Shown one piece after another: positions 1,807-54,596 of a DNA stretch of 64,000 nucleotides; position 1 is the first letter of the stretch; each line of letters begins with the position of its first letter. Where the stretch lies: sequence record LC680885.1; one strand, given 5' to 3'. Under the pieces are notes generated by a model, which made no database searches, was not told the DNA's origin, and saw only the letters and a program-made list of their open reading frames with translations. Origin of the DNA: Staphylococcus phage S6. The position numbers and the translations under genes are program-made.

Positions 1807-1833
1807 TTTTAAATTTATATTATAATTATGAAG
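1807..1833 (+). promoter_or_regulatory. variant copy of the conserved AT-rich promoter-like motif (TTTTAAATTTATATTATAATTATGAAG)
   Basis: Shares TTAAATTTATATTATAATTATGA(A/G)G with copies at 48751 and 22403; followed by perfect 19-nt palindrome gttgataattattatcaac (1833-1851) then an RBS. Confidence 0.5.
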
Positions 1834-1877
1834 TTGATAATTATTATCAACTAATTTAAATAAAAGGATGATTTAAT

Positions 1878-2177
1878 ATGAATGAAATTAAAATAATGGA
1901 TACTGAACTACTACAGGAAGCTGTAGAAGGAAAAGAGAATAACGGTGGAGGTTACGAACATACTCGTACCGTTTTCGAATTCCAAGGAAAACAAGGAGTT
2001 TTCGAAGACACTTCTTGTGGTGATTTCGGTAGCAGATTCTTCATGGAATGGGATGGAAAAATGGCTATGTGGGGAAGTATGATTGATGAAGAACTCGAAT
2101 ACAGTGAATTCGATGAACAAGAACAATCAGAACTTCTAAAGCATTTTAGAGTTCCTGTTTTTGAAGAAACAATCTAG
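1878..2177 (+). CDS. small acidic protein (99 aa), monocistronic
   Basis: ORF with RBS aaaggatg; Asp/Glu-rich; own promoter-like motif upstream and a strong terminator immediately downstream. Confidence 0.6.
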   Translation: MNEIKIMDTELLQEAVEGKENNGGGYEHTRTVFEFQGKQGVFEDTSCGDFGSRFFMEWDGKMAMWGSMIDEELEYSEFDEQEQSELLKHFRVPVFEETI

Positions 2178-2212
2178 GACATTAATGTCCTAGATTTCTT
2201 TTATTTTTTTTC
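2174..2212 (+). terminator. rho-independent terminator
   Basis: Perfect palindrome ctaggacattaatgtcctag overlapping the stop codon, followed by tttcttttatttttttt. Confidence 0.85.
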
Positions 2213-2235
2213 TAAAAATATTCTATTTTATGATT

Positions 2236-2254
2236 AAATATATATTATAAAAAT
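2236..2254 (+). promoter_or_regulatory. conserved 20-nt promoter-like motif AAATATATATTATAAAAAT
   Basis: Identical core to copies at 4894, 9894, 28825, 51727, 54577; about 80 nt upstream of the first gene of the paralog array. Confidence 0.55.
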
Positions 2255-2334
2255 AGATGCAATTAAATATATTGAAAGATGTTGTTTTATATGTAAAGTT
2301 TTAGAAGAATTTAATAAGGGAGCTGAAATAGATA

Positions 2335-2817
2335 ATGATATATTACAAAAATAAAGTAAATGGTGAAATATACGAAGTTAATGATATTCATAGAAAAGAT
2401 GATGCATTTTATTATGTGTTTGGTAATGAATTTAAAAAAGAAAGAATAGGATTATATGAATCAGTGGGTAAAAAAATTGATTTATTTGATAAAGATAAAG
2501 GACATAAAGAATTAAACTTCCAATTAAATTATGACTCATCTAGATTATTTTTAGTTACACATATGAAATATGATAATAATAATCCTTTTGCACCTAAAGC
2601 AGTAGATTTAAAGAATCAAAATTTTGTCGCATCCGATTCTTCAGAAGATCTTTACTATATATTATATAAAAGAATGTGTAATGCAATAGATATACCTTTA
2701 TTAGATTATAATGTATTATTAAAAGAATTTAATTTTGATAATGAAGATATATTTAAAATAATATCAGAAGATTGTAAAGAAGTAAAAGATTTTAAAATTA
2801 GAAATCTTTTTAAATAA
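2335..2817 (+). CDS. paralog-array protein (160 aa), divergent tail ...CKEVKDFKIRNLFK
   Basis: N-terminus MIYYKNKVNGEIYEVNDIHRKDDAFYYVF is nearly identical to ORF 3545; C-terminal tail is related to the array consensus. Confidence 0.6.
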   Translation: MIYYKNKVNGEIYEVNDIHRKDDAFYYVFGNEFKKERIGLYESVGKKIDLFDKDKGHKELNFQLNYDSSRLFLVTHMKYDNNNPFAPKAVDLKNQNFVASDSSEDLYYILYKRMCNAIDIPLLDYNVLLKEFNFDNEDIFKIISEDCKEVKDFKIRNLFK

Positions 2818-2832
2818 AAGGAGAAATTTTAA

Positions 2833-3534: not shown

Positions 3535-3544
3535 GGAAGTGTAA

Positions 3545-4882: not shown

Positions 4883-4893
4883 AAATATGTATT

Positions 4894-4913
4894 AAATATA
4901 TATTATAAAAATG
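4894..4913 (+). promoter_or_regulatory. conserved promoter-like motif AAATATATATTATAAAAATG + 5'-UTR hairpin
   Basis: Exact 20-mer; immediately followed by 13-bp stem gagataatgaatt/aattcattatctc (4913-4943), then RBS taggagagtg. Confidence 0.55.
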
Positions 4914-4975
4914 AGATAATGAATTAATATAATTCATTATCTCTATATTAATTTAATTAGGAGAGTGAAAAAGAT

Positions 4976-5584
4976 ATGGATTTAAAAGAGAATAAATTTT
5001 ATTATAATAAAGATATTAATGAGCTTTTTATAATTGGTAAGGATGAAAGTGATATTAACGATAAGATAAATAAATTCTATTATAAAAAATTATTAGAAAA
5101 AAATTTAGATTATCATGGTTTAATTAATAATCTTTATTATAATAGAAATATAAATTTTGATTTAATGGATGATGACGATATATATTTTAGTAATATGTAT
5201 AATGGAATTAGAGAATATATTAAGGTGAGTTATGTAGAATTTTCATGTACAAATTTTGAAGATAATGAAGTAATATTACAGTTAGATACTTTTATTGATA
5301 AAAGCAATGATAAAAATCTTTTAGAAGTTCATAAAGATTCGCATGGTGTTACCATAACAATGGTAAAAGGTTTTTATGAAAAAGATCTTATAAATTATAA
5401 TGAATACAAAAATATTTTAGACAAATTATCTGATCTGTTTGACACAATGCTTAAAGAAGAAAATGATGGAAATATTAAAATCTTTATAAATGATATTGAT
5501 ATATTTGAACCTTATGCATATTTTAGAGAGTTAGAAGACGAAAGAGGAATTAAAAATATTTTGGTTAAGAAAAATTTTATATAA
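4976..5584 (+). CDS. paralog-array protein (202 aa), tail ...ELEDERGIKNILVKKNFI
   Basis: RBS taggagagtgaaaaagatATG; C-terminal tail family. Confidence 0.6.
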   Translation: MDLKENKFYYNKDINELFIIGKDESDINDKINKFYYKKLLEKNLDYHGLINNLYYNRNINFDLMDDDDIYFSNMYNGIREYIKVSYVEFSCTNFEDNEVILQLDTFIDKSNDKNLLEVHKDSHGVTITMVKGFYEKDLINYNEYKNILDKLSDLFDTMLKEENDGNIKIFINDIDIFEPYAYFRELEDERGIKNILVKKNFI

Positions 5585-5598
5585 AGGAGATAGATATA

Positions 5599-6219
5599 AT
5601 GGATGTAAATGAATATATAAATAATCATGATTTTTATAGAGTTGGGAATGACGGTCAAGTATTTGTATTTAATAAAGATATATCAAAAGATGAATTAAAT
5701 TCTAAAATATTTACTAAATTATTTTCATGCGAAAATATAGGAATTATACTGTCTGAATGTGGTCATTATATAATAGATGGAAATAATATATTCTTAAGAA
5801 ATAATGATAAAATATTATTAGTCGAAAATATGACTATTGATATAAGTTTATTTAAAGATGATCTAATTGAATTAAATTTTATATTAAATATTGAATCTGA
5901 TCTTTATTCAAAAATTGGTCCTTTTGAAAAAGATAATCATGATCCTTTTTATTATTATAATACTATTATTCAAATAGAAAATAAAGATAACTTTCAACAT
6001 GAATTAATTTCTCATATAACAAATCATTTTAATAAAATGAGTGATGTTGATTTAATGCTTTTAACTACTAAAAATGAAATTAGATTTAATAAAGATTATA
6101 GTATTAATAAAAAATGTATTGATTTTAAATGTAATTTTAATGAAATTTATAAAATATTTAATAAATTAGAAGATGAAAAAGAAATTAAGAAATATATAGT
6201 AAGAGAAAATTTTAAATAA
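5599..6219 (+). CDS. paralog-array protein (206 aa), tail ...LEDEKEIKKYIVRENFK
   Basis: RBS aaaggag; tail motif. Confidence 0.6.
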   Translation: MDVNEYINNHDFYRVGNDGQVFVFNKDISKDELNSKIFTKLFSCENIGIILSECGHYIIDGNNIFLRNNDKILLVENMTIDISLFKDDLIELNFILNIESDLYSKIGPFEKDNHDPFYYYNTIIQIENKDNFQHELISHITNHFNKMSDVDLMLLTTKNEIRFNKDYSINKKCIDFKCNFNEIYKIFNKLEDEKEIKKYIVRENFK

Positions 6220-6232
6220 GGATAGAATAAAT

Positions 6233-6796
6233 ATGAATTTAGATAATATTGTAATATTAAAAAAGAAAAATGATGGTAAATTTGACAATAACAAATTTAT
6301 AGAATTTAATCATAATAATATTAATAATGATGAAATATTAAGTCTTTCTTTAATTACTCTATATACGAGCGTGTATGCATTTTATATAAAAAGTGATGTA
6401 AAACCTGACAATTTTGTTAGTTATTTAGCTAATTTTTATTTAGAAATAGATGGGCATTTAAAAGGACCTTTAAATATAACACATGATGAAAATAATAGAA
6501 TACTTATAATTTATAAAGGAAGACTACCACAAGATATTTTTGAGATTAGAGAATTTAACGTAAATACTAAATTATATGCATACTTAATTAAAGGTGGTAA
6601 TTACAATACGGTAGAAGATGATCTAATCAAATCAATAATCAATGGTTCAGAGTATATAATAAATAATGAAAGAATTAAGCCAAAAATTATTATTAATGGA
6701 GCATATAAGGATATTACAAATGTATTAAATTATTTTGAAAAACTTACTGATGAAAAAGAAATTAAAAAATATCTAATTAAAAAAAATTTTAAGTAG
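6233..6796 (+). CDS. paralog-array protein (187 aa), tail ...LTDEKEIKKYLIKKNFK
   Basis: tail motif. Confidence 0.6.
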   Translation: MNLDNIVILKKKNDGKFDNNKFIEFNHNNINNDEILSLSLITLYTSVYAFYIKSDVKPDNFVSYLANFYLEIDGHLKGPLNITHDENNRILIIYKGRLPQDIFEIREFNVNTKLYAYLIKGGNYNTVEDDLIKSIINGSEYIINNERIKPKIIINGAYKDITNVLNYFEKLTDEKEIKKYLIKKNFK

Positions 6797-6813
6797 AATA
6801 AGGAGGATTAAAT

Positions 6814-7437
6814 TTGGATAAGTCATTATATGTATCGGATATATTCGATGAGAAAGTTATAGGAAGAAAGGATCTTAATAAAGATGAACTTTTTGATTTG
6901 TCATTTAATACAATTTTAAATAATTCTGCTGACACTAGATTTAATAAAGAAGGAATTAGGTTAATGTTATCATTTTCAAAAGGATTAATTTTAAAATTTG
7001 ATTATGCAGACAAATATTTTTATGTGAAAGATTTTATATTTTTAATAGAAAAAGTTGATGGTAACTATGAATTTAATTTTACATTAAGTATTCCAGAATT
7101 TGCAGACAGTGAAATTGAAATTGAATTAGGAATTTTTGAATCGGATAAAGGTCATAGAGAATTTTATTTTAATGATTTTTCTTATTATAAAGAAGGAAAA
7201 ACTTTATTAGAAAGAGCTAAAGAATATTTAATATACGATATTTTTAATAATTATGGTGTTATTTTTAGTATTTTTTCATTAAAAGACAAAAATAGAATTT
7301 TAACAGACGATAATTTTATCATAGATAATAATGATATAGATGAATTTTATAGTCTAAAAAATATAGATAACGTATTTAGAGAAGTAACAAACGAAAAAGA
7401 AATTAAAGAATACTTAGTTCAGAAAGGATTTAGATAA
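6814..7437 (+). CDS. paralog-array protein (207 aa), tail ...VTNEKEIKEYLVQKGFR
   Basis: TTG start 7 nt after AGGAGG; tail motif. Confidence 0.55.
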   Translation: MDKSLYVSDIFDEKVIGRKDLNKDELFDLSFNTILNNSADTRFNKEGIRLMLSFSKGLILKFDYADKYFYVKDFIFLIEKVDGNYEFNFTLSIPEFADSEIEIELGIFESDKGHREFYFNDFSYYKEGKTLLERAKEYLIYDIFNNYGVIFSIFSLKDKNRILTDDNFIIDNNDIDEFYSLKNIDNVFREVTNEKEIKEYLVQKGFR

Positions 7438-7438
7438 A

Positions 7439-8050
7439 ATGAAAATAGACTTAGAATCTTATGAATACTATTACCATGATGAAGAAAAAATATTAGTTCC
7501 AGTATCATTAGATATGAAGAAAGAAAATGCAAATGAGTTAATGACGTTTGAATATTATAAGAAAGTTTTTAAAAGTTTTAATCATAATATATTTCATAAA
7601 AGAATTCATGATGATAATATACTATTTAGTACTCGATTAAATAAAGTGATTAACAAAAGTACTGGTATATCAATACCTACTTATGATTTATATATACATT
7701 TTGAAATAGATAACTCATTAAATATTATTTCCTTAGAATTAAGTTTTTCAATGGATACAAATCACTTTGATTTATTTAGAACATTCTATAAAGATAAAAT
7801 AGAAGTTATAAATTTTTCAAAGACAGATTTTTTAAAATATAATCAAAATGTAGATAATTTAGAAGATAAAATGGCATGTCTATTAGCTAAATTATTCTTT
7901 GATATGCACAATGATGAAAATGAAGATATTGAAATATATGTAGACAATTTTTACCATGAATCACTAGACATAGCTAAGCCATATAAATATTTTAGATTGA
8001 TGGGAGAAAAAGAAATAAAAAATCTAGCAACTAAAAAAACTTTTAAATAA
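7439..8050 (+). CDS. paralog-array protein (203 aa), degenerate tail ...MGEKEIKNLATKKTFK
   Basis: ATG overlaps the previous stop (translational coupling); tail motif. Confidence 0.55.
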   Translation: MKIDLESYEYYYHDEEKILVPVSLDMKKENANELMTFEYYKKVFKSFNHNIFHKRIHDDNILFSTRLNKVINKSTGISIPTYDLYIHFEIDNSLNIISLELSFSMDTNHFDLFRTFYKDKIEVINFSKTDFLKYNQNVDNLEDKMACLLAKLFFDMHNDENEDIEIYVDNFYHESLDIAKPYKYFRLMGEKEIKNLATKKTFK

Positions 8051-9893: not shown

Positions 9894-9913
9894 AAATATA
9901 TATTATAAAAATG
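9894..9913 (+). promoter_or_regulatory. conserved promoter-like motif AAATATATATTATAAAAATG + hairpin
   Basis: Exact 20-mer followed by 12-bp stem atcccaatacta/tagtattgggat (9916-9945), then RBS aaaggag. Confidence 0.55.
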
Positions 9914-9970
9914 TTATCCCAATACTATTAAATTAGTATTGGGATTATTATAATAAAAGGAGTTAAGTAA

Positions 9971-10747: not shown

Positions 10748-10748
10748 T

Positions 10749-11567: not shown

Positions 11568-11588
11568 TATAAAGAAAGGATTTTTGTA

Positions 11589-12329: not shown

Positions 12330-12345
12330 AAAGGAGATCAATGTA

Positions 12346-13128: not shown

Positions 13129-13143
13129 AAGGAGATTAATATA

Positions 13144-13941: not shown

Positions 13942-13997
13942 AATTAAAAATTTATAGTAACGGAAATATATTTATCAATAGGAGTTGAAACTGGATA

Positions 13998-16733: not shown

Positions 16734-16769
16734 AATTTGTTATTAAAAATTTGAGAGGAGTAGATCTAT

Positions 16770-17057
16770 TTGATTCTTAATGTTAATAAAACTTTAGATG
16801 CTAAATTGGAAAAAGAAATGCAGGATGATATTAGAACTGCATTCATTGATAGTACGTTATCACCAATCCTTTATAAAAAATTAGAAGATTTATGTGAAAT
16901 TCATGATAAAGATATAAAACTTTATTATAACCATGATATGATAGAATTTAAAGAATTAAGAAAAAGTTTGATTAGATTTTATAAAGAAAATAATTTAGAT
17001 GAAGACGAATTCATTATAAAGATTAAAAAAGAAGTTATTAAAGATACATTTAAATAG
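16770..17057 (+). CDS. hypothetical protein (95 aa)
   Basis: TTG start after gagagga RBS; C-terminus ...IIKIKKEVIKDTFK loosely resembles the array tail. Confidence 0.4.
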   Translation: MILNVNKTLDAKLEKEMQDDIRTAFIDSTLSPILYKKLEDLCEIHDKDIKLYYNHDMIEFKELRKSLIRFYKENNLDEDEFIIKIKKEVIKDTFK

Positions 17058-17074
17058 AAAAGGACGGTTTTATA

Positions 17075-22370: not shown

Positions 22371-22406
22371 TTTGAATAACGGATTAAATACAATTCGTTA
22401 TTCAAA
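22371..22406 (+). terminator. terminator hairpin
   Basis: 11-bp stem tttgaataacg/cgttattcaaa. Confidence 0.55.
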
Positions 22407-22423
22407 TTTATATTATATAAGTG
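22403..22423 (+). promoter_or_regulatory. variant promoter-like motif CAAATTTATATTATATAAGTG
   Basis: TTTATATTATA core shared with 1807 and 48751; 40 nt upstream of the beta-prime C-terminal gene. Confidence 0.45.
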
Positions 22424-22462
22424 TAGTACATAATATTTATTTATAAGGAGAATGAATTAGAT

Positions 22463-28824: not shown

Positions 28825-28844
28825 AAATATATATTATAAAGATG
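28825..28844 (+). promoter_or_regulatory. conserved promoter-like motif AAATATATATTATAAAGATG + hairpin
   Basis: 19/20 match to consensus; followed by 11-bp palindrome tattaataata-gaa-tattattaata (28845-28869). Confidence 0.5.
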
Positions 28845-28900
28845 TATTAATAATAGAATATTATTAATATAAATAATTTAAATGGAGAGTGTCAGATATT

Positions 28901-34010: not shown

Positions 34011-34107
34011 ATTTTATTCAAACCCTTTCGATAAATTTTCTTTATTTCTTTATATTTAGTTGTTCTTTTATAAAAATAATATGTTTCATAATAGTATAAA
34101 AATAAAT

Positions 34108-47461: not shown

Positions 47462-48688
47462 TTGGCTAATATGAATTATGAAAATAAAACACTTAATGAA
47501 AAAGAAGTATCGACATTATTAAGTGTTGGTAAAGATGACATTACATTAGACAAGTTAAAAGAATTATTTGCTTTTAGACAAAATACAGAACCAATGTATA
47601 ATCCAACGGATAAATTTACATTAAAGAAAGATCTAGTCTATAATAAAAAAGATGAAAAAACTACTGTAGGTAGATATATATTTAATAAATTTATTTTAGA
47701 TAATAAAATTGGACCGATTATAGGCTATATGAATCGTGATATGGGCGGTTCTGGAGTAGGTAAACTTCAATCTGATTTATCAAATTTATTACTTAATGAT
47801 ATTATTACTACACAAGAAATGTCAAATTATATCGATAAATTACAATGGTTAGGTTTCTCTATAGCCAGTTTTATTAATTCTAGTCTAACTACTACAATGA
47901 TGACTGCTACTGAAAAAGTTAAACAGAAAAAAGAAGAGTTATTAGTTAAATATGAAAAAGCATTGAATACTCCTGGAGAGGAATTAAATGCAATATCAGT
48001 TATTGAAAAAGAATTAATCAATTTAAGTAAAGAAGAATTAAAAGGTTTAGCTGATTTAGATATTTATGATAGTGGTTCACGTGGTTCATTCGGCAATAAC
48101 TATAAATTAACTGCATTAATTCGTGGAGCAAATAAAAACTTTGCTGATCCAAGTAAAATTAGAATTGCTAAAAGCTCACTAGCTGAAGGAATTGATCCTA
48201 ATGAACTTTATATGTTTGGAGATATTATGACTGCAGGTTCAGCTGGACGTGCACTAGGTACTCAAGAAGGAGGGTATCAGGCTAAGCAACTAATGTCGGC
48301 CTTCCAAACAACTGTTTTAGATAAAAAAGGTTCTGACTGTAGAACAAATCATTTCCTTAAATTAATATTAGATAAATCAAACGCATCATTAATGATGTAT
48401 AGATATTTTAAAGATAATAACGCAAGATCAGGTCAATTAGTTTTATTAACTCCTGAAAATGTAGATGATTACATGGGTAGAGTTTTAGAATTTAGAAGTC
48501 CTATGTATTGTGCAAGTGAAGATATTTGTAGTAAATGTGCAGGAGAATTACCATATAAATTAGGAATTGAAAATATTGGTCTATTAGTTAACCAAGTTGC
48601 TCAAGCAATCGTAACAAGTTCAATGAAATCTTTCCATGATATGACGATTAAACAAAATGAAATAGATATAGAAAGTTATATAGAATAA
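47462..48688 (+). CDS. second multisubunit RNAP beta-prime C-terminal-like protein (408 aa)
   Basis: GSAGRALGTQEGGYQAKQLMSAFQT is a bridge-helix-like segment. RSPMYCASEDICSKCAGELPYKLGIENIGLLVNQVAQAIVTSSMKSFHD is a region-G-like segment paralogous to ORF 22463. Start could be TTG 47462 or ATG 47471. Confidence 0.7.
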   Translation: MANMNYENKTLNEKEVSTLLSVGKDDITLDKLKELFAFRQNTEPMYNPTDKFTLKKDLVYNKKDEKTTVGRYIFNKFILDNKIGPIIGYMNRDMGGSGVGKLQSDLSNLLLNDIITTQEMSNYIDKLQWLGFSIASFINSSLTTTMMTATEKVKQKKEELLVKYEKALNTPGEELNAISVIEKELINLSKEELKGLADLDIYDSGSRGSFGNNYKLTALIRGANKNFADPSKIRIAKSSLAEGIDPNELYMFGDIMTAGSAGRALGTQEGGYQAKQLMSAFQTTVLDKKGSDCRTNHFLKLILDKSNASLMMYRYFKDNNARSGQLVLLTPENVDDYMGRVLEFRSPMYCASEDICSKCAGELPYKLGIENIGLLVNQVAQAIVTSSMKSFHDMTIKQNEIDIESYIE

Positions 48689-48695
48689 CATAGAT

Positions 48696-48737
48696 AGGAT
48701 AACAATCATTAAATTGATTGTTATCCTTATTTTATTG
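48696..48737 (+). terminator. rho-independent terminator
   Basis: 12-bp stem aggataacaatc/gattgttatcct, followed by tattttatt. Confidence 0.75.
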
Positions 48738-48750
48738 GATTAAATCGTTC

Positions 48751-48776
48751 TTTAAATTTATATTATAATTATGAGG
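48751..48776 (+). promoter_or_regulatory. variant promoter-like motif TTTAAATTTATATTATAATTATGAGG
   Basis: 24/26 identical to the copy at 1807. Confidence 0.5.
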
Positions 48777-48844
48777 TGAATGATGTGTATTAATGTGATA
48801 TACTTATAATTATAAAAATAAATTTAATGGAGATGAAATGGATA

Positions 48845-50920
48845 ATGTTAGGTAAAGAAATAATGAGAAGATCTGAAATAATTTACGATGATACGGATAT
48901 AAAAACTGTTTTAAATTTAGATCCGGATAAAGATTACATAAATGAAGAAGAGGATATCGAATATATCTGTCCTAAACATGGTAAACAAAAAAGAAAAATA
49001 AAACAACATTTAGAAAAGAAAGGTTGTTTCGAGTGTCAATACGATAATAAGTCTAAAAAGACTAAAGGTAAAGATTTATTAGGAGAGTTTTACAAAAGAT
49101 TTGGAGAAGATGTTTTTGATTATCCAGATATAGAAGAAGATCGTGTATATTCATCTAGAGAAAAAATAAAGATAGTTTGTTTTAAACATGGAGAGTTCAC
49201 TAGACAAATTAGAGAACATAATACAAAAGCTAAAATATGTGATAAATGTAAATTAGAGGATGGAGGAAAAGATTTTAAAAAGAAACAATTTAAAGAAAGA
49301 TTGAGAAATGAAAATTATGAAATGTATAAGATTACCGATTTTTCTGAGACTGTATTTGAAGGGTTAACTAATTTTATGTATGTTAGATGTAAAAAACATG
49401 ATACGATTAACAAAATACAACCTAGATCATTACTAAGTAAGAATAGTAATGGGTGTTCAAAATGTAGAAGTGAAAAACTATTAAAAAGTAGAAGATCTAA
49501 TAACAAGGTATATAACGTGGAAGATATTTTTAACATATATAAACAAAAAGGAAATCTTTTAAATACTGCGACTAAATATCTTGAAAATTTAAATCTCGAA
49601 CAAAGAAAAGAGTTATTCTTAATGATATCCAAACATAATTTTGGAAATAAGTATGACTATTCTTTAATAGAAAAAGAAAAAAATAATTTTAAATCTAGAG
49701 ATAAAGTAACACTAATATGTAAAGAACATAATGTCGAATTTAAACAAAATATATCACACCACTATAAAGGTAGGTTAGGTTGTGATAAGTGTAAAAAGGA
49801 TAATGTGTCTAAAAGTATATCTGACTCATACAGATTTTCTAAAAGAACAGATATAAAACCTGAAGAATTAATAAAAGAAGTGGATAATGAAAATTTCAAA
49901 GATAATGAGATAAGAAAAATAGTGAGATTAATGAATTTTGAAGATAAAGGAAAATATTACAGATTATTAGGGAAAAAGATTAAGGGAGATAAATATAACT
50001 ATGATAAATTAGTGTATAACGGTGATAGTGTTCAGGTAACTATAACATGTAAAAAACATGGAGATTTTAAACAGGTAATATACGATCACTTTTTCCAAGA
50101 TCATAATTGTAATAAATGTTCAAAGATCGTATCCAAACAAGAACTTAAATTAAGTAATGATTTGGAAAAATATTTTACAGTTAAAAATTCTTTAAGAAGA
50201 ATATTTGAGGATAAAAGAAAAGAAATTGATATATTTATCAAAGATATTAATTTAGGTATAGAGATAAATGGTCTAAGATGGCATTCAAATGATATAAAAA
50301 AGGAGGATGAAAATAATTTTGCAAGATACCATCAATTTAGTAAAATGAATGAATCTGAATGTTTAGGTATAAAATTATTAAACTTCTATGACGATGAAAT
50401 AAATATAAAGAAAAATGAAATTTCTTATTCTAAAATAATGAAAGAAATTTTATTATTTAATAATTCCTTTAATATTAAAAATATAGATTTAAAAGATTTA
50501 GAGATGAAAAAGATATCTTATAATTTCATAAAGAAATTTTATAAGAAACATTCACTAGAATTCTTTAATGAAGAAGATAAAAATTATAGAGGAATATTCT
50601 ATAAAGGTTATATAGTTTCCGTATTCTCATTTAATAATAAGAACGAATGTCATAACTATAGCACGAATTACAATTTAAATGAAGATATTGATTTAATATT
50701 AGATGCTTACCCTAATACCATTTTTAATATTAGATCAGATTCTTATAATAGATATAAATTTCAAGATTATGGGTTCATTACAATAAATAAAACTCTACCG
50801 CAATATAGAAATTTCAATAAAAAAGGTTTAACTAAAAATAGATATAAAAGATTAGAAAAGAGGGATACTAATAATCCTAATAGAATTTATGATTGTGGTA
50901 GAACTATCATGATTTACTAA
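48845..50920 (+). CDS. homing-endonuclease-like protein: 5 Zn-finger-like repeats + Vsr/DUF559-like PD-(D/E)xK nuclease domain
   Basis: Five repeats of C(P/K)KHG.F...H...C..C; then IDIFIKDINLGIEINGLRWHS (DUF559/Vsr-like ...IE(V/I)xG..H); C-terminal domain paralogous to ORF 51794. ATG 48845 is 12 nt after GGAG (the track starts at 48827). Confidence 0.6.
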   Translation: MLGKEIMRRSEIIYDDTDIKTVLNLDPDKDYINEEEDIEYICPKHGKQKRKIKQHLEKKGCFECQYDNKSKKTKGKDLLGEFYKRFGEDVFDYPDIEEDRVYSSREKIKIVCFKHGEFTRQIREHNTKAKICDKCKLEDGGKDFKKKQFKERLRNENYEMYKITDFSETVFEGLTNFMYVRCKKHDTINKIQPRSLLSKNSNGCSKCRSEKLLKSRRSNNKVYNVEDIFNIYKQKGNLLNTATKYLENLNLEQRKELFLMISKHNFGNKYDYSLIEKEKNNFKSRDKVTLICKEHNVEFKQNISHHYKGRLGCDKCKKDNVSKSISDSYRFSKRTDIKPEELIKEVDNENFKDNEIRKIVRLMNFEDKGKYYRLLGKKIKGDKYNYDKLVYNGDSVQVTITCKKHGDFKQVIYDHFFQDHNCNKCSKIVSKQELKLSNDLEKYFTVKNSLRRIFEDKRKEIDIFIKDINLGIEINGLRWHSNDIKKEDENNFARYHQFSKMNESECLGIKLLNFYDDEINIKKNEISYSKIMKEILLFNNSFNIKNIDLKDLEMKKISYNFIKKFYKKHSLEFFNEEDKNYRGIFYKGYIVSVFSFNNKNECHNYSTNYNLNEDIDLILDAYPNTIFNIRSDSYNRYKFQDYGFITINKTLPQYRNFNKKGLTKNRYKRLEKRDTNNPNRIYDCGRTIMIY

Positions 50921-50923
50921 TAT

Positions 50924-50972
50924 AATACAGTGACATTAATTTGTCACTGTATTATAATTATTTTTTTTTTTA
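50924..50972 (+). terminator. rho-independent terminator
   Basis: 12-bp stem aatacagtgaca/tgtcactgtatt, followed by T13. Confidence 0.85.
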
Positions 50973-51065
50973 TTTAGGATTTATAAATAACTATTTTAAT
51001 ATAGTAATAGATATATTTCTATTTACTATATTCGTAAATTCTTTTTCTTACTCAATCTCGTAATT

Positions 51066-51110
51066 TGTTTTGCGTCAAGCAGGTTACATGGGCCTCCTAC
51101 CCGTATAATA
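51066..51110 (+). promoter_or_regulatory. possible host sigma-A-type promoter (perfect TATAAT) upstream of tRNA genes
   Basis: ttacat...gggcctcctacccgTATAATattg; GC-rich island unusual for this genome; -35 element poor. Confidence 0.3.
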
Positions 51111-51160
51111 TTGTACTACACCTAAGTGGATCATAGAAAATGGTCCACTTTGTTTATCAT

Positions 51161-51232
51161 TGTCCCATAGCTCAACGGTAGAGCGATCGGCTGTTAACCG
51201 GTTTGTTGAAAGTTCGAATCTTTCTGGGACAG
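51161..51232 (+). tRNA. tRNA-Asn (anticodon GUU)
   Basis: Manual cloverleaf: acceptor tgtccca/tgggaca; D arm gctc/gagc; anticodon arm atcgg-cuGUUaa-ccggt; T arm gaaag-TTCGAAT-ctttc; discriminator g; no encoded CCA. Confidence 0.8.
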
Positions 51233-51237
51233 CTTAT

Positions 51238-51308
51238 GTTCTTGTTGCTACTGGTTAAAGCATATCGAGTAAATCGGTATTTTGTGAGTTCGACTCTCAC
51301 CAAGAACA
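51238..51308 (+). tRNA. tRNA-like gene with non-canonical anticodon loop (AGUAAAU; nominal anticodon UAA)
   Basis: Acceptor gttcttg/caagaac; T arm gtgag-TTCGACT-ctcac; anticodon stem tatcg/cggta. The loop lacks U33 and the variable arm is short (type I), so identity is uncertain. Confidence 0.5.
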
Positions 51309-51677
51309 CGCCAATAGGATTAATCATCCTTACACTAAGGCTGCAGACTTAGTGTGAATAAAATACAGTATGAGTTATATGCCACTCTTATACTGTTAGA
51401 TTCAACTAATGCTAAGGCATATCATTAGTTGTAAAAATTTAAAACTTATATCTAATTTACGTTTAGTTATTAGATTGTATTTTTGTTAAAGAGGACTTAT
51501 TTTACTTAATTGTAATAAGTATCTGACTTTAACTTAATTGGTTTTCTAGTTTTGACCCTAACAATAAAAAACTAGACTATTAAATATTTTATTTCTTTTT
51601 AGCTCACAACTTAAAAGAAAAACTAGGTGGATCATTTTATGCTTTTTTGATCGACTAAAAACTAATAAAGCACCCTT

Positions 51678-51708
51678 ACCCTAACCTCATTAATTTGAAG
51701 GTTAGGGT
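51678..51708 (+). terminator. CCCTAACC-family hairpin
   Basis: accctaacct-cattaatttga-aggttagggt, followed by tattttata. Confidence 0.55.
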
Positions 51709-51726
51709 TATTTTATACATAGTTTT

Positions 51727-51746
51727 AAATATATATTATAAAAATG
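51727..51746 (+). promoter_or_regulatory. conserved promoter-like motif AAATATATATTATAAAAATG
   Basis: Exact 20-mer, 48 nt upstream of ORF 51794. Confidence 0.55.
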
Positions 51747-51793
51747 AGATATAATTGTCTCAAATACTTTTATAATATGGAGATGAAAAAGAT

Positions 51794-53743
51794 ATGATAG
51801 GTTCAAAGATTAGAAAATCATTAAATGAAAAATTTGGTTATCATTATAAGTTTTTATTAGAAGATTTTAAGAAAGATTATGATTTAAATAATGATACAAT
51901 TATGGTAACTAAAGAAGCTAGTGACATCACAAAAGAATATAAAATAAAATCATTAAAGTATACTAAAGACATTGAAAAATTAGACAAAGACTTTAAGAAA
52001 GAGGAAGAAGAATTAAATATTAGAAAATCTAGAATTTTTAATTTAGATGAATTAGGTTTAGATGAAGACCTTAGAAACATCTGTAAGTATATAGACAGCA
52101 CTACTAAATTAAAAGTAAAAGTTAGAGAGTATAAAAAAGAAAGTAAAGAAAATATTGAATTCTTTTACAAAAATTTTGCTAATTATACTTATAATAGTGT
52201 AATATATGATATGAGTCAGTTTAAGCCATCAACAATTAGATCTAACCAGAAAGTTATATGTAGAAAACATGGTCCTTTCTTTACCACTCCAGTAGATTTC
52301 TTTATAAAGAAAAAAGGATGTCCGGTGTGTGAAAAAGAAACGGAAGAAGAAAAGAAAGATACTAGTTGGAAGGATGAATTCATAGAAAATAAAAATGAAA
52401 AAATATATCAAGAAGTAAAGGAAGAGAAAGAAAAGGAAAATAAAAAATCTAAAAAAGAAAAGGTAGATGTGAAAAAAGAAAATAAAAAACTTTTAGATGA
52501 AGTATTAAATCCACCTGAATTAGGATATTATAGAGAACCGGATAAGATACCTAATACTGAAAAAGAAAATGAGAGATTCTTGAAGAGTATTAAAGAAATA
52601 GATAGTAAATTTGAAGAACCTAAAGAAGTTGAAGAACCAAAGGAAATTGTTAAACCTAAATTAAATAAAAAGACAGTTGATCAAATAATAGGAGACGATA
52701 ATACTAATCTAAGCAGAAAAATTAGATATATAAATAAAAATATTTATACAGAAAATGAAAGACAAGATTTCTATAAAAAATTAACTGACCGCAAACATGG
52801 TAAAAATAAATATAAGATTGATAAATTTAGACCTAAGACAGTTAAAGAAAAACAAGAAGTAATTTGTCTTAAGCATGGTCCTTTTAAAGTAACAGCTGAA
52901 GAATTATTAATTAGAGGTAGACAGTGCCCTAAATGTTCTTCTACTAGTACTTCTATAACAGAAACTTTTGTAAGAGAATATATTCAGAGTTTAGATTTTG
53001 AAGTTAATAATTATGAAATAGAAGATTTAATCAAACCTTATGGCGTTGATATAGTTATTGAAAATTTAAAATTGGCTATTGAAGTTCAAGGTATCAAATA
53101 TCATTCATCTGAAACACGATCAGAGGCTTCAAATAAATATCATCAATTAAGAAAATTAAAAATGCTAGAAAATAAAGGTTATCGTTTATTGAATATATAC
53201 GATGATGAAATTCCTAATAAGAATAAAGGAATTGGTTGGGATAAATTTGGTAGATTCTTATCTGAATTAATGATGTTTGATAAAAGATTTGATATTGAAG
53301 AAATGGATACTAATTCAATAAAAATAGATACAATTAGTTATTACAAATTCAGAGAATTCTTTGAAAACTCTAGACAAGAATTTGTTACTGGTGATACAGA
53401 ATATAAAGGAGTGGTTTATAAGAATAAATTAATTTCAGTATTCTCTTATAATAAAGAAACACGAGAATGTCATAACTATCATACTATGACAAATAATAAA
53501 TTTGATTTAGAATTAATTAATAGAAAATACAAAGATTTAAAATTTATAGTTAAAAGAGATTCTTATGTGGCGTATAAAATGAAAAGTCATGATATGTTAC
53601 CAATAGCAGAAACGGAACCTGATTTCTGTAACTTTTCAAAGACTAATGGAAATAGAAAAAATAACTATATAAGACAAAAAAGAAAGGATGAAAATGATAA
53701 AAACAAAGTATATAACTGTGGAAATATAATTTTTGTATTTTAA
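51794..53743 (+). CDS. homing-endonuclease-like protein: 2 Zn-finger-like repeats + Lys/Glu-rich linker + Vsr/DUF559-like nuclease domain
   Basis: VICRKHGPFFTTPVDFFIKKKGCPVCE and VICLKHGPFKVTAEELLIRGRQCPKCS; VDIVIENLKLAIEVQGIKYHS; paralog of ORF 48845. Confidence 0.6.
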   Translation: MIGSKIRKSLNEKFGYHYKFLLEDFKKDYDLNNDTIMVTKEASDITKEYKIKSLKYTKDIEKLDKDFKKEEEELNIRKSRIFNLDELGLDEDLRNICKYIDSTTKLKVKVREYKKESKENIEFFYKNFANYTYNSVIYDMSQFKPSTIRSNQKVICRKHGPFFTTPVDFFIKKKGCPVCEKETEEEKKDTSWKDEFIENKNEKIYQEVKEEKEKENKKSKKEKVDVKKENKKLLDEVLNPPELGYYREPDKIPNTEKENERFLKSIKEIDSKFEEPKEVEEPKEIVKPKLNKKTVDQIIGDDNTNLSRKIRYINKNIYTENERQDFYKKLTDRKHGKNKYKIDKFRPKTVKEKQEVICLKHGPFKVTAEELLIRGRQCPKCSSTSTSITETFVREYIQSLDFEVNNYEIEDLIKPYGVDIVIENLKLAIEVQGIKYHSSETRSEASNKYHQLRKLKMLENKGYRLLNIYDDEIPNKNKGIGWDKFGRFLSELMMFDKRFDIEEMDTNSIKIDTISYYKFREFFENSRQEFVTGDTEYKGVVYKNKLISVFSYNKETRECHNYHTMTNNKFDLELINRKYKDLKFIVKRDSYVAYKMKSHDMLPIAETEPDFCNFSKTNGNRKNNYIRQKRKDENDKNKVYNCGNIIFVF

Positions 53744-53749
53744 ATAATA

Positions 53750-53800
53750 ACCCTAACCTTATTAATTTAAGGTTAGGGTATTTTATATTTTTTTTTTATT
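53750..53800. terminator. bidirectional terminator (CCCTAACC hairpin family)
   Basis: accctaacctt-attaattt-aaggttagggt, followed by T-tract; near-identical to 31089 and 58689. Confidence 0.8.
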
Positions 53801-54479
53801 GAATTATCTTATTTGGTTTAACTTCACTTTTCATTTTGATTTCAGTTTTAACTTTGTCAAGAACTTCTGATTCATATAAAGAAGGATCTTCTTCATATTT
53901 TTTAGTCATCTTCTTAACAGCTTCTAATTTATTTTCTAATGGTGCTTCTAATTCTACTTGATTAAATAACCCTTCAAAATTACCGAAAACAAATTCTTCA
54001 TTTAATGGAATAAACAGATCTCCATTGTGTGCTAACTCATGAGCAGTATAAGACAAAGGTACAATTCCTATATTACCCTCAAAATGTATTTTAATAACAT
54101 CTTCAGCTATTTTAAAACTTTCATATGATTTTTTATACTCATAATTAGTTTTAAGTTTTTCTCTGTAGCTAGACACTATATCATATAAAGACAATGGGTA
54201 GTGGTGCATTTCTATAGTTAATCGCTTATCATCATTTATATCAACTTCTGGTATAAACTTACATTTAGTAAGATCCATTTCTGTTTTCAAAGCTTTAATA
54301 AATGATTTGTATTCATATGAGCTTCTAACTATTTTTTCAATATATTTATTAAATGTCTCTTCAGACTTTATATCATCTTCATTATTATACATTTCAAATT
54401 TCTTTGTTTCATCTACATTTAATTCTATTGTTTCGATTAATTTTGGAAGGTCTTTTTTATCTACTTTTGGCATTTGCAT
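53796..54479 (-). CDS. hypothetical protein (227 aa); contains an HExxH-like motif
   Basis: LSYTAHELAHNGDLF; RBS agaaagaagg. Confidence 0.45.
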   Translation of the reverse strand: MQMPKVDKKDLPKLIETIELNVDETKKFEMYNNEDDIKSEETFNKYIEKIVRSSYEYKSFIKALKTEMDLTKCKFIPEVDINDDKRLTIEMHHYPLSLYDIVSSYREKLKTNYEYKKSYESFKIAEDVIKIHFEGNIGIVPLSYTAHELAHNGDLFIPLNEEFVFGNFEGLFNQVELEAPLENKLEAVKKMTKKYEEDPSLYESEVLDKVKTEIKMKSEVKPNKIIQ

Positions 54480-54576
54480 AGATTTAATACCTTCTTTCTA
54501 ATTTTCTTTTATCTATATTAGTATAATTAAATGTTATGAATATTTTTTAGTCTTTATGCGTTTCATGTAAATTTTT

Positions 54577-54596
54577 AAATATATATTATAAAAGTG
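54577..54596 (+). promoter_or_regulatory. conserved promoter-like motif AAATATATATTATAAAAGTG
   Basis: 19/20 match; 58 nt upstream of ORF 54654. Confidence 0.5.

What the first reader, a model, noticed from the sequence alone, without database searches (positions are those of the whole stretch)
1807..54596. Perfectly conserved 20-nt intergenic motif AAATATATATTATAAAAATG (plus variant TTAAATTTATATTATAATTATGAGG) upstream of many plus-strand genes, each followed by a 5'-UTR hairpin
Exact or 19/20 copies occur at 2236, 4894, 9894, 28825, 51727 and 54577; variant copies occur at 1807, 22403 and 48751. Each sits 55-80 nt upstream of a start codon, frequently just after a terminator. It is usually followed immediately by a stable hairpin (e.g. 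4913-4943, 9916-9945, 1833-1851, 28845-28869) and then a strong RBS.

None is seen upstream of the minus-strand structural/late genes. The TATATTAT core resembles the AT-rich early promoters reported for virion-packaged multisubunit RNAPs of phiKZ-like (TATATTAC) and AR9-like phages, consistent with the RNAP genes in this window. The constant hairpin after the motif suggests a structured 5' end of early transcripts.
Basis: partly seen in the sequence, partly recalled or inferred. Interest (0 to 1): 0.7.

Follow-up and report, generated by a model that had tools for sequence, protein, structure and literature searches.

The report
Jumbo-phage early promoters with 5' hairpins
The repeated AT-rich 20-mer is the already known early promoter of AR9-like jumbo phages. 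What appears unreported is that in the Staphylococcus lineage most transcripts from it would begin, at the first base, with a hairpin that probably shields the 5' end from RNA decay.

Summary
Nine plus-strand, intergenic copies of AAAT[A/T]TATATTAT-N6-G/A occur in the window, against about one expected by chance. None lies in coding DNA, although only 8.6% of the window is non-coding.

The window comes from a Staphylococcus jumbo phage (96-99% identical to vB_SauM-UFV_DC4, about 92% to MarsHill). The motif is letter for letter the experimentally mapped early promoter of Bacillus phage AR9, AAATATATATTAT-(6N)-G(+1), which the virion RNA polymerase uses. It was already reported upstream of 29 MarsHill genes, so the promoter is known.

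The hairpin part seems to be new, and it is robust.
- Six of the nine window sites, and 17 of 29 sites across phage SA1, are followed by a stem-loop.
- Among 47 unique Staphylococcus-phage promoters, folding energy peaks exactly when the folded segment starts at the predicted +1.
- Stem sequences differ between promoters and show compensatory changes.
- G·U pairs favour the sense RNA (24 versus 4).
- AR9 and BpSp promoters, and the late-type AACA-N6-TA sites in this window, have no such hairpin.

The most likely role, inferred and not shown, is a 5'-terminal stabiliser that blocks RppH and RNase J. The main rivals are an antisense terminator and a polymerase-linked role.

The parts
1811..1830 (+). 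Early-promoter motif AAATTTATATTATAATTATG (variant with T at position 5). Predicted +1 is G1830. It lies upstream of ORF 1878-2177.
   Evidence: Conserved in DC4, MarsHill and SA1 while the flanks vary.
1832..1852 (+). 5' stem-loop of the predicted transcript (+3 to +23, 9 bp).
   Evidence: -7.6 kcal/mol, z = -2.8. The SA1 ortholog has a different stem (AGAAGT/ACTTCT) at the same place.
2236..2255 (+). Early-promoter motif AAATATATATTATAAAAATA, with A rather than G at predicted +1. No hairpin follows. It lies just after a terminator at 2171-2196.
   Evidence: z = +0.25. The 20-mer is identical in DC4, MarsHill and SA1.
4894..4913 (+). Early-promoter motif, exact 20-mer. Predicted +1 is G4913. 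It lies upstream of ORF 4976-5584.
   Evidence: In MarsHill a 26-nt deletion removes this promoter but leaves the hairpin.
4913..4943 (+). 5' stem-loop starting at +1 (14 bp). Member of the GAGRTAATGA...TCATTAYCTC subfamily.
   Evidence: -15.3 kcal/mol, z = -5.3. Covariation in the subfamily.
9894..9913 (+). Early-promoter motif, exact 20-mer. Predicted +1 is G9913. It heads the operon 9971-17226.
9916..9945 (+). 5' stem-loop (+4 to +33, 12 bp).
   Evidence: -16.9 kcal/mol, z = -5.3. The SA1 ortholog carries a compensatory C-G to U-A change. The Machias GenBank record labels this hairpin a 'terminator'.
22404..22423 (+). Early-promoter motif AAATTTATATTATATAAGTG upstream of the non-virion RNAP beta' gene (22463-24376). 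No hairpin follows. It abuts the terminator-like hairpin 22374-22403 of the portal gene.
   Evidence: AR9 has an annotated early promoter before the homologous g154.
28825..28844 (+). Early-promoter motif (19/20). Predicted +1 is G28844.
28844..28870 (+). 5' stem-loop starting at +1 (11 Watson-Crick pairs plus 1 G·U).
   Evidence: -6.9 kcal/mol, z = -2.5. It is remodelled but retained in SA1 and MarsHill, and lost in Machias.
48754..48773 (+). Early-promoter motif (variant). It heads a 697-aa zinc-ribbon ORF in a segment absent from MarsHill. Only a weak hairpin follows (48780-48807).
   Evidence: z = -1.2.
51727..51746 (+). Early-promoter motif, exact 20-mer, directly after a terminator hairpin. 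Predicted +1 is G51746.
51746..51761 (+). Short 5' stem-loop starting at +1 (6 bp).
   Evidence: -7.0 kcal/mol for the 45-mer, z = -1.5. The SA1 ortholog has an 11-bp hairpin here.
54577..54596 (+). Early-promoter motif (19/20) in a divergent intergenic region. Predicted +1 is G54596.
54596..54622 (+). 5' stem-loop starting at +1 (9 bp including one G·U).
   Evidence: -7.8 kcal/mol, z = -2.75. The SA1 ortholog keeps the stem with changed bases.
34053..34064 (-). Late-promoter-like AACA-N6-TA site, an example of a set. The others are at 35175, 37695, 40968, 42676, 54524, 61164 and 61178 on the minus strand, and 47419 on the plus strand. They lie upstream of genes that carry no early motif.
   Evidence: 8 sites in 7 of 12 gaps upstream of minus-strand genes, against 2.2 expected (P about 0.001). 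Their 5' ends are unstructured.

Best explanation
The 20-mers are early promoters of the AR9/PBS1 type. The phage's virion-packaged multisubunit RNA polymerase would read the AT-rich block AAAT(A/T)TATATTAT and start at the G six bases downstream, which is the last base of the 20-mer. This drives nine plus-strand early or continuously expressed transcription units in the window.

The minus-strand block (lysis genes, virion RNAP subunits) instead carries AR9-type late-promoter-like sites (AACA-N6-TA).

In the Staphylococcus jumbo-phage lineage, and not in the Bacillus relatives examined, most early transcripts are built so that the first transcribed bases (G-A-G/A...) pair into a 6-15 bp stem-loop. 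This leaves zero to three unpaired 5' nucleotides. An unstructured linker of about 15-30 nt and a strong extended Shine-Dalgarno sequence follow.

The most likely function of this 5'-terminal stem-loop is to protect early phage mRNAs from 5'-end-dependent decay in the Gram-positive host. That pathway removes the triphosphate with RppH, which needs at least 2 unpaired 5' nucleotides, and then degrades the RNA with the 5' exonuclease RNase J1/J2.

Shown here: the motif, its placement, its identity with the AR9 consensus, the position, sense-strand specificity and covariation of the hairpins, and their absence from AR9, BpSp and the late-type sites.
Inferred: the start site, the early timing, and the stabiliser function.
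For: Promoter:
- Identity with the AR9 consensus, whose start sites were mapped experimentally.
- The same motif was reported in MarsHill.
- 9 of 9 core hits are intergenic and co-oriented with the downstream gene.
- The motif is invariant across DC4, MarsHill, Machias and SA1 while the flanks diverge.
- RNAP domains are present and the window is collinear with annotated virion and non-virion RNAP genes.
- The promoter before non-virion RNAP beta' is orthologous to one in AR9.
- SA1 RNA-seq classes fit. SbcC, DNA polymerase, non-virion RNAP beta' and the helicase are 'middle'. The lysins and virion RNAP subunits are 'late'.
- Host sigma-70-like sites are not enriched (210 found, 193 expected).

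Hairpin:
- 6 of 9 window sites and 17 of 29 SA1 sites fall in the most stable 5% of genomic 40-mers. 14 of those 17 SA1 stems start exactly at +1.
- Over 47 unique promoters, mean folding energy is -6.9 kcal/mol when the 30-nt segment starts at the predicted start site, against about -0.7 in the flanks.
- Of 29 promoters with a hairpin on either strand, the sense RNA is the more stable in 28. G·U pairs number 24 in the sense fold and 4 in the antisense fold (binomial P = 7e-4). Over all 47 promoters, Wilcoxon P = 3e-8.
- Orthologs show compensatory or remodelled stems. In one subfamily 3 of 12 pairs change on both sides and 100% of cells stay paired.
- None of 16 AR9 sites and none of 13 BpSp sites reaches that threshold.
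- Late-type sites are unstructured.
- There is no U-tract after the stem in 21 of 27 hairpins, and the stems are only 25% G+C.

Function by analogy: in Bacilli a hairpin at or near the 5' end stabilises long downstream mRNA, and RppH needs at least 2 unpaired nucleotides (PMC3997798). The phage T7 gene 10 5' stem-loop stabilises mRNA (PMC6146998).
Against: - No transcript 5' ends or half-lives are available for any Staphylococcus jumbo phage. The +1 position is transferred from AR9.
- Two or three of the nine window promoters, and roughly a third to 40% in relatives, lack a strong hairpin, so it is not obligatory.
- The exact +1 register is equally predicted by the antisense-terminator rival, because the complement of the A-rich spacer is a U-tract.
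- Staphylococcus spacers are A-richer than those of the Bacillus phages (64% versus 49% A).
- One stem sequence (GAGGTAATGAC...) also serves as a terminator-like hairpin elsewhere in SA1. This hints at spread of the palindromes by duplication.
- Why AR9 and BpSp manage without hairpins is unexplained.
Confidence: 0.55

Rival explanations
1. The hairpin plus the complement of the A-rich promoter spacer (CAUUUUUAUAAUAUAU...) forms an intrinsic terminator on the opposite strand. It would stop antisense or convergent transcription at the head of each early operon. On this view the sense-strand hairpin is incidental.
For: - The terminator scan flags 9945..9916 and 4943..4913 on the minus strand.
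- The Staphylococcus spacer consensus AAAAAT is A-richer than in the Bacillus phages.
- The same palindrome acts as a terminator-like element between convergent genes in SA1.
- AR9 is reported to make antisense transcripts.
- This model also predicts a stem abutting +1.
Against: - The sense RNA is more stable than the antisense RNA in 28 of 29 cases.
- G·U pairs, which become C·A mismatches in the antisense RNA, number 24 versus 4.
- Most of these promoters sit inside long same-strand gene arrays with no nearby minus-strand promoter.
- The stems are AT-rich (25% G+C), unlike the clear terminators of these genomes.
Confidence: 0.12
2. The hairpin serves the virion RNA polymerase itself, co-transcriptionally. 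The nascent 5' hairpin would aid release from the strongly bound AT-rich promoter, prevent an extended RNA:DNA hybrid on the AT-rich (probably dU-containing) template, or act as a promoter-proximal pause or attenuator.
For: - The hairpins are restricted to early-promoter transcripts and absent from late-type sites.
- Their register relative to +1 is strict.
- The structure is at the RNA level and specific to the sense strand.
Against: - AR9 and BpSp polymerases use the same promoter without any hairpin.
- A third or more of the Staphylococcus-phage promoters lack one.
- A stem that closes at +16 to +37 forms after promoter escape would normally be complete (general knowledge of multisubunit RNAPs; inference).
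- No U-tract for attenuation follows 21 of 27 hairpins.
Confidence: 0.15
3. The stem-loop is a recognition or regulatory element. It could be a binding site for a phage or host protein, for example to mark early phage mRNAs for selective translation or survival during host shut-off. It could also be a translational control element.
For: - One subfamily keeps a 10-bp outer stem sequence, GAGRTAATGA/TCATTAYCTC, followed by TAATAT.
- The promoter-proximal genes share an unusually uniform initiation region, GGAG(A/G)(G)TGAAA-NN-GATATG.
Against: - Across promoters the stem and loop sequences are otherwise unrelated, and only the structure and its position are shared.
- The hairpin does not overlap or pair with the ribosome-binding site.
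Confidence: 0.1
4. The palindromes have no function of their own. They are carried along when promoter cassettes duplicate, or they are small palindromic repeats that spread through intergenic DNA.
For: - Promoter plus leader cassettes are near-duplicates in places (window 1811 versus MarsHill 188200; the GAGGTAATGA group).
- In MarsHill a hairpin persists after its promoter was deleted.
Against: - 27 unique hairpin sequences share only their position and structure.
- There are compensatory changes and full pairing.
- There is a G·U strand asymmetry.
- The energy peak sits sharply at the start site.
- The hairpins are absent from late-type sites and from the Bacillus relatives.
Confidence: 0.05
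5. The 20-mer is not a promoter. It would be some other cis element, such as a regulator or replication-protein binding site, or a host sigma-A promoter variant.
For: The motif contains TATATTAT, which resembles an extended -10 element. No direct transcript data exist for this phage.
Against: - All 13 specified core bases, the spacing and the start base match experimentally mapped AR9 early promoters.
- Every copy is co-oriented with and upstream of a gene.
- No -35 partner is present and sigma-70-type sites show no enrichment.
Confidence: 0.03

Closest known systems
Early (virion RNA polymerase) promoters of Bacillus phage AR9/PBS1: AAATATATATTAT-(6N)-G(+1) (Lavysh et al. 2017, PMC5312081). 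The same motif was predicted upstream of 29 genes of Staphylococcus phage MarsHill (bioRxiv 10.1101/2020.12.14.422802).
   Same: The core is the same 13-mer, with the same tolerated A/T at position 5, the same 6-nt spacer and the same G at the start position. Placement is intergenic and co-oriented. The phage type is the same, with split virion and non-virion multisubunit RNAPs. Both have a promoter before the non-virion RNAP beta' gene.
   Different: In the Staphylococcus phages the spacer has its own consensus (AAAAAT) and the leaders are longer (40-80 nt, against about 25-45 nt in most AR9 sites examined). Most transcripts would start with a stem-loop. None of 16 AR9 sites and none of 13 BpSp sites has one in the stable tail.
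5'-terminal stem-loop mRNA stabilisers: E. coli ompA and papA leaders, the phage T7 gene 10 leader, and 5' hairpin or 'roadblock' stabilisers in Bacillus subtilis (reviewed in PMC3997798; T7g10 in PMC6146998).
   Same: A hairpin sits at the very 5' end with few or no unpaired nucleotides. It lies upstream of and apart from the ribosome-binding site. The host is Gram-positive, where decay depends strongly on the 5' end (RppH, RNase J).
   Different: Here the hairpin is a class-wide feature tied to one promoter type of one phage lineage (tens of different stems), not a property of a single leader. Stabilisation has not been measured.
AR9 late (non-virion RNA polymerase) promoters: AACA-(6N)-TA/G.
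   Same: The motif is enriched, in the correct orientation and mostly 33-55 nt from the start codon (161 nt at 37695), upstream of the minus-strand genes that lack the early motif.
   Different: These sites are only predicted here and the motif is short. Their leaders are unstructured, in contrast to the early class.
Hairpin promoters of coliphage N4 virion RNA polymerase.
   Same: Both involve a virion-packaged polymerase, early genes, and an inverted repeat next to the start site.
   Different: The N4 hairpin is a DNA structure upstream of +1 that a single-subunit polymerase recognises (my own knowledge, not checked in papers here). In this window the repeat lies downstream of +1, behaves as sense-strand RNA, and is dispensable in relatives that use the same promoter.

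Membership tests
AR9-type early (virion RNAP) promoter | Consensus AAATATATATTAT, a 6-nt spacer, then G at +1. | tested here: met
   Nine sites match AAAT[AT]TATATTAT-N6-[GA]. Six carry the exact 13-mer. Three carry T at position 5, as do AR9 sites 11189, 17247 and 133388. Eight of nine have G at +1.
AR9-type early (virion RNAP) promoter | Intergenic, upstream of and co-oriented with genes; over-represented. | tested here: met
   9 of 9 sites are intergenic and co-oriented, with 8.6% of the window non-coding. Eleven hits against 1.1 expected.
AR9-type early (virion RNAP) promoter | [quoted passage not shown] | tested here: met
   Pfam finds Rpb1 domains in 222-1733 and 22463-24376. The window is collinear with MarsHill genes annotated as virion RNAP beta' (222-1733, 47462-48688), virion RNAP beta (42748-47001) and non-virion RNAP beta'. 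tblastn links the non-virion beta' to AR9, PBS1 and phiR1-37.
AR9-type early (virion RNAP) promoter | Primary transcripts start at the G, appear early, and do not depend on new protein synthesis or host RNAP. | not testable with these tools
   No 5'-end data are available for this phage. Indirect support comes from stems that begin exactly at that G and from SA1 RNA-seq gene classes that are compatible.
5'-terminal stem-loop mRNA stabiliser | A stable stem-loop at the extreme 5' end with no more than about 2-3 unpaired nucleotides. | tested here: met
   Assuming the AR9 start site, stems start at +1 (four sites), +3 and +4 in the window, and at +1 in 14 of 17 SA1 cases. The energy peak is at offset 0.
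5'-terminal stem-loop mRNA stabiliser | The structure is selected at the RNA level on the transcribed strand. | tested here: met
   The sense RNA is more stable than the antisense RNA in 28 of 29 cases. G·U pairs number 24 versus 4. Compensatory changes are seen.
5'-terminal stem-loop mRNA stabiliser | Removing the stem shortens mRNA half-life, and the effect depends on RppH, RNase J or RNase Y. | not testable with these tools
   This needs reporter and half-life experiments in S. aureus.
Intrinsic (rho-independent) terminator | A G+C-rich stem followed directly by a U-tract on the transcribed strand. | tested here: not met
   On the sense strand the hairpins average 25% G+C, and a T-run of 4 or more follows only 6 of 27. 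A U-rich tail does follow on the antisense strand, but the pairing is weaker there.
N4-type hairpin promoter | A DNA hairpin upstream of +1 that the polymerase needs for recognition. | tested here: not met
   The repeat is downstream of +1. It is absent from AR9 and BpSp, which share the promoter. The strand asymmetry points to RNA.
AR9-type late (non-virion RNAP) promoter (for the genes without the early motif) | AACA-(6N)-TA/G a short distance upstream of late genes, co-oriented with them. | tested here: met
   Eight sites lie in 7 of 12 gaps upstream of minus-strand genes, against 2.2 expected (P about 0.001). One site lies in the opposite orientation. Leaders are mostly 33-55 nt. Function was not tested.

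The most novel reading that the evidence does not exclude
The 5' stem-loop could be a lineage-specific 'self' mark of early mRNAs made by the virion polymerase. On this reading it is not merely a passive block to RppH and RNase J. It would let early phage messages survive, or be translated selectively, while the phage or the host drives global 5'-end-dependent mRNA destruction. Alternatively, it could be needed by the Staphylococcus-phage virion RNAP itself. Either reading would tie a structural RNA feature to a non-canonical viral polymerase class.
Probability: 0.12. Interest if true: 0.7.

Novelty: new variant of a known kind. Interest (0 to 1): 0.42.

Why it matters
The promoter itself adds nothing new. 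It confirms that this Staphylococcus jumbo phage uses the AR9 two-polymerase, two-promoter scheme.

The hairpin finding gives a concrete, testable hypothesis about post-transcriptional control in jumbo phages. A whole temporal class of transcripts, defined by one viral polymerase, would carry a built-in 5' cap-like structure in one host lineage and not in the closest Bacillus relatives.

If the hairpins are stabilisers, three consequences follow. They would explain how AU-rich early messages survive in a host rich in RNase J and RNase Y. They would provide compact promoter-plus-leader cassettes for engineering staphylococcal phages. They would also correct annotation errors, since at least one of these hairpins is deposited as a 'terminator'. 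Finally, their exact register offers sequence-only support for the start site in phages that lack transcript maps.

Tried and rejected
- **IMG/VR pattern scan.** An exact-pattern scan for AAATATATATTAT-N6-G returned 120 stretches, almost all single chance hits in AT-rich contigs. It was not used.
- **Search for uncultured relatives.** The search for related loci with the non-virion RNAP beta' protein and with a 4-sequence alignment found no relatives in viral contigs. The phylogenetic spread of the hairpins beyond cultured phages is therefore untested.
- **Listeria phage LPJP1.** This is the closest non-Staphylococcus relative by RNAP beta' (36% identity). It has many TATATTAT cores but not the extended consensus, so early promoters could not be called with confidence. 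The result is inconclusive.
- **SA1 RNA-seq paper.** Its per-gene table is not held, so only genes named in the text could be matched to classes.
- **Rfam.** Nothing matched except tRNA.
- **Host-type promoters.** Sigma-70-type promoters are not enriched, so they were rejected as an explanation.
- **Sense-strand terminator, DNA cruciform, N4-like hairpin promoter.** All rejected on tail composition, strand asymmetry and absence from AR9 and BpSp.
- **RNase III site.** Considered unlikely because the stems are only 6-15 bp. This is inference and was not tested.
- **Other core hits.** TATATTAT hits at 8917, 30153 and 58719 are parts of terminator hairpins, not promoters.

Full report
**What the window is.** Megablast of the first 25 kb hits only Staphylococcus jumbo phages. 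Identity is 96.6% to vB_SauM-UFV_DC4, about 92% to MarsHill and Madawaska, and about 83% to Machias, SA1 and PB50. The whole window is collinear with MarsHill 109,833-175,093. G+C is 20-32%. MarsHill's annotation places several genes here: virion RNAP beta' (window 222-1733 and 47462-48688), virion RNAP beta (42748-47001, minus strand), non-virion RNAP beta' (22463-24376), DNA polymerase, portal, an amidase, RNase H and dCMP deaminase. Pfam confirms Rpb1 domains in 222-1733 and 22463-24376. tblastn links the non-virion beta' to Listeria phage LPJP1, Bacillus phages BpSp, PBS1 and AR9, and Yersinia phage phiR1-37. This is an AR9/PBS1-like phage with two multisubunit RNA polymerases.

**Checking the observation.** The 20-mer AAATATATATTATAAAAATG has 11 matches within 3 mismatches, against 1.1 expected and at most 5 in 100 shuffles. 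Nine are on the plus strand, at 1811, 2236, 4894, 9894, 22404, 28825, 48754, 51727 and 54577. The two minus-strand hits are three-mismatch matches inside ORFs and lack the core. The core AAAT[AT]TATATTAT occurs exactly nine times, always plus-strand and intergenic, although only 8.6% of the window is non-coding. Other TATATTAT hits in intergenic DNA (8917, 30153, 58719) are arms of terminator hairpins. Motif-to-start-codon distances are 59-99 nt rather than 55-80. Three of the nine sites directly follow a terminator-like hairpin.

**What the motif is.** AR9 early promoters were defined by dRNA-seq and primer extension as AAATATATATTAT-(6N)-G(+1). There are 41 such start sites, they are active 5 min after infection, and they are insensitive to chloramphenicol. 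They are therefore assigned to the injected virion RNAP (PMC5312081). The window's 20-mer is that consensus plus a spacer, and its last base is the AR9 start position. AR9's own GenBank record annotates these promoters. The MarsHill genome paper already reported the motif upstream of 29 MarsHill genes. I find 29 canonical sites in SA1. In four-genome alignments of the intergenic regions the motif is invariant while the flanks diverge. The terminator abutting site 22404 shows its own compensatory change. The promoter at 22404 precedes the non-virion RNAP beta' gene, as in AR9 g154. Host sigma-70-type sites are not enriched (210 found, 193 ± 13 expected).

**The genes without the motif.** The AR9 late consensus AACA-(6N)-TA/G occurs 8 times in 7 of the 12 gaps upstream of minus-strand genes. 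This compares with 2.2 expected (P about 0.001) and one occurrence in the opposite orientation. The sites are mostly 33-55 nt from the start codon. One more lies before the plus-strand virion RNAP beta' gene, at 47419. SA1 RNA-seq, as far as the text names genes, agrees. The orthologs of the SbcC-like ATPase, DNA polymerase, non-virion RNAP beta' and helicase are 'middle'. The lysins and virion RNAP subunits are 'late' (ORF numbering matched). The absence of the early motif from the minus strand is a local effect. In MarsHill and SA1 it occurs on both strands, co-oriented with the downstream gene wherever one is identifiable.

**The hairpins.** I folded +1 to +45 of each predicted transcript.

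| Promoter | Stem-loop | Energy (kcal/mol) | z-score |
|---|---|---|---|
| 4894 | 4913-4943 | -15.3 | -5.3 |
| 9894 | 9916-9945 | -16.9 | -5.3 |
| 1811 | 1832-1852 | -7.6 | -2.8 |
| 54577 | 54596-54622 | -7.8 | -2.75 |
| 28825 | 28844-28870 | -6.9 | -2.5 |
| 51727 | 51746-51761 | -7.0 | -1.5 |
| 48754 | weak, starts at +8 | -5.6 | -1.2 |
| 2236 | none | - | +0.25 |
| 22404 | none | - | -0.3 |

Only 4.9% of random 40-mers from the window are as stable as the six best (binomial P about 1e-6).

I then enlarged the sample. The whole SA1 genome has 29 canonical sites. Seventeen are in the most stable 5% of genomic 40-mers, where 1.5 are expected, and 14 of those 17 stems begin exactly at +1. MarsHill (100 kb) and Machias (50 kb) behave alike. 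Over 47 unique Staphylococcus-phage promoters, the mean folding energy of a 30-nt segment is about -0.7 kcal/mol everywhere from -60 to +69. The exception is a sharp minimum of -6.9 when the segment starts at the predicted start site.

The stems are 6-15 bp (mean 10.9), the loops 3-9 nt, and G+C is 25%. A T-run of 4 or more follows in only 6 of 27 cases. An unstructured linker and a strong ribosome-binding site follow.

**Is the structure selected, and on which strand?** The 27 unique strong hairpins share position and shape but not sequence. Orthologs show several kinds of change:
- the SA1 copy of the 9894 stem has a C-G to U-A exchange;
- the SA1 copy of the 1811 stem is an unrelated 6-bp helix at the same place;
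- the 28825 and 51727 stems are remodelled but kept.

One subfamily, GAGRTAATGA...TCATTAYCTC, comprises window 4913, Machias 6438 and four SA1 copies (three at early promoters and one terminator-like copy). In it all 72 cells are paired, 3 of 12 pairs change on both sides, and no shuffle out of 500 reaches the observed score. The sample is only six sequences.

To avoid choosing hairpins by their sense-strand energy, I took every promoter with a hairpin on either strand. The sense RNA is the more stable in 28 of 29. G·U pairs number 24 in the sense fold and 4 in the antisense fold, where composition predicts a ratio of 1.24 to 1 (P = 7e-4). Over all 47 promoters, Wilcoxon P = 3e-8. This argues for an RNA structure on the transcript, not a DNA cruciform.

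**Where the hairpins are absent.** None of 16 AR9 motif sites and none of 13 BpSp motif sites reaches the same threshold. Their leaders are short and unstructured, and their metaprofile is flat. The late-type sites in the window also have unstructured starts, from 0 to -3.7 kcal/mol. The hairpin is therefore specific both to the early class and, among the phages I could examine, to the Staphylococcus lineage. None of the MarsHill, DC4, PALS2 or SA1 papers mentions a hairpin or stem-loop. A wider text search found no description either. The AR9 paper notes only an unexplained 5'-UTR sequence motif. I cannot exclude a report in literature that is not held.

**How it most likely works.** In Bacilli a hairpin at or near the 5' end stabilises long downstream mRNA. 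RppH needs at least two unpaired 5' nucleotides, and RNase J1 then degrades from a monophosphate 5' end (PMC3997798). The T7 gene 10 leader stem-loop is a phage precedent (PMC6146998). A stem that starts at +1 to +4, stands clear of the ribosome-binding site and varies freely in sequence is what a generic 5'-end shield should look like. I therefore favour a stabiliser role for early phage messages. This step is inferred. The start site is transferred from AR9, and no half-life data exist.

**Rivals.** The strongest rival is that the hairpin, together with the complement of the A-rich spacer (CAUUUUUAUAAUAU...), forms a terminator for the opposite strand. The scan tool flags two such cases. The Staphylococcus spacer is A-richer than in the Bacillus phages (64% versus 49% A). 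The same palindrome serves as a terminator-like hairpin between convergent genes in SA1. This model also predicts the +1 register. The strand asymmetry and the position of most promoters inside long same-strand arrays speak against it as the main function. A role for the virion polymerase itself, a protein-binding role, and neutral spread of palindromes are each possible but less supported; details are in the rivals section.

**Verdict.** The promoter is already known, including in a sister phage. The class-wide, lineage-specific 5'-terminal stem-loop appears to be undescribed. It is a moderate and readily testable addition, a new variant of a known kind and not a new kind of element.

Noticed in passing
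window 48689-51233: This segment is absent from MarsHill, where window 48688 maps to 162049 and window 51234 to 162282. It carries its own early-promoter copy (48754), a 697-aa ORF with weak zinc-ribbon/treble-clef matches (DUF4379, Zn_ribbon_HMPTM) and tRNA-Asn. It may be an inserted or mobile gene cassette.
   Followed up: partly
window 51161-51233 and 51238-51309: tRNA-Asn (GUU) is called by ARAGORN and Rfam. Immediately downstream is a tRNA-like sequence with a 7-bp acceptor-like stem and a T-arm-like GTGAGTTCGACTCTCAC. Neither tool calls it a tRNA at threshold. Its only sub-threshold Rfam hit is to a family that also hits the tRNA-Asn region on the antisense strand. SA1 has tRNA-Ser at this locus. 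The remainder of 50921-51726 is about 800 nt of non-coding, G+C-richer DNA.
   Followed up: partly
window 34053, 35175, 37695, 40968, 42676, 54524, 61164, 61178 (minus strand); 47419 (plus strand): AR9-type late-promoter-like sites (AACA-N6-TA), often of the form AACA-N4-AATA. They are enriched upstream of the genes that lack the early motif and are followed by short unstructured leaders. The MarsHill paper says a late motif could not be found de novo.
   Followed up: yes
window 4958-4978, 22443-22465, 51774-51796, 54633-54656, 48827-48850, 28879-28903; many SA1 promoter-proximal genes: The first gene after an early promoter usually has a very uniform initiation region, GGAG(A/G)(G)TGAAA-NN-GATA(A)TG. 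This looks like an extended Shine-Dalgarno sequence (compare GGAGGTGA, complementary to the 16S rRNA 3' end) plus a conserved GATATG. It implies that the true starts of ORFs 28889 and 48827 are probably the ATGs at 28901 and 48848. Internal operon genes are less uniform.
   Followed up: partly
L002 16470-16530 (MarsHill 116,470-116,530), ortholog of window 4883-4975: MarsHill has a 26-nt deletion that removes the early promoter but keeps the hairpin and leader, with one stem mismatch. SA1 has AAGT instead of AAAT in the motif at this site. This looks like promoter loss in progress.
   Followed up: partly
SA1 157142-157170 (L133 7142-7170), SA1 about 52385-52415, and SA1 22626, 63837, 70500: The same palindrome, GAGGTAATGAC...GTCATTACCTC, is used at +1 of three early promoters and as terminator-like hairpins. 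One of those lies between convergent genes. This suggests that hairpin modules are copied around the genome.
   Followed up: partly
L127 10478-10510 (Machias 122,478-122,510): The GenBank record annotates the +1 hairpin of the 9894-orthologous promoter as a 'terminator', only 9 nt before the annotated ribosome-binding site of the next gene. This is probably an annotation artefact of terminator-finding software.
   Followed up: yes
window 222-1733 versus MarsHill 110,055-113,191: The virion RNAP beta' gene is uninterrupted in the window. In MarsHill it is split by introns, one of which carries a homing endonuclease gene, and in Machias it is also split into three exons. The window-MarsHill alignment breaks at 1382/1700.
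   Followed up: no
window 4976-8050 and 9971-13941: Two tandem arrays of similar-sized ORFs (about 200 aa and about 250-290 aa) each follow an early promoter with a strong hairpin. They may be paralogous early gene families; BpSp annotates 'tryptophan repeat gene family' arrays in comparable positions.
   Followed up: no
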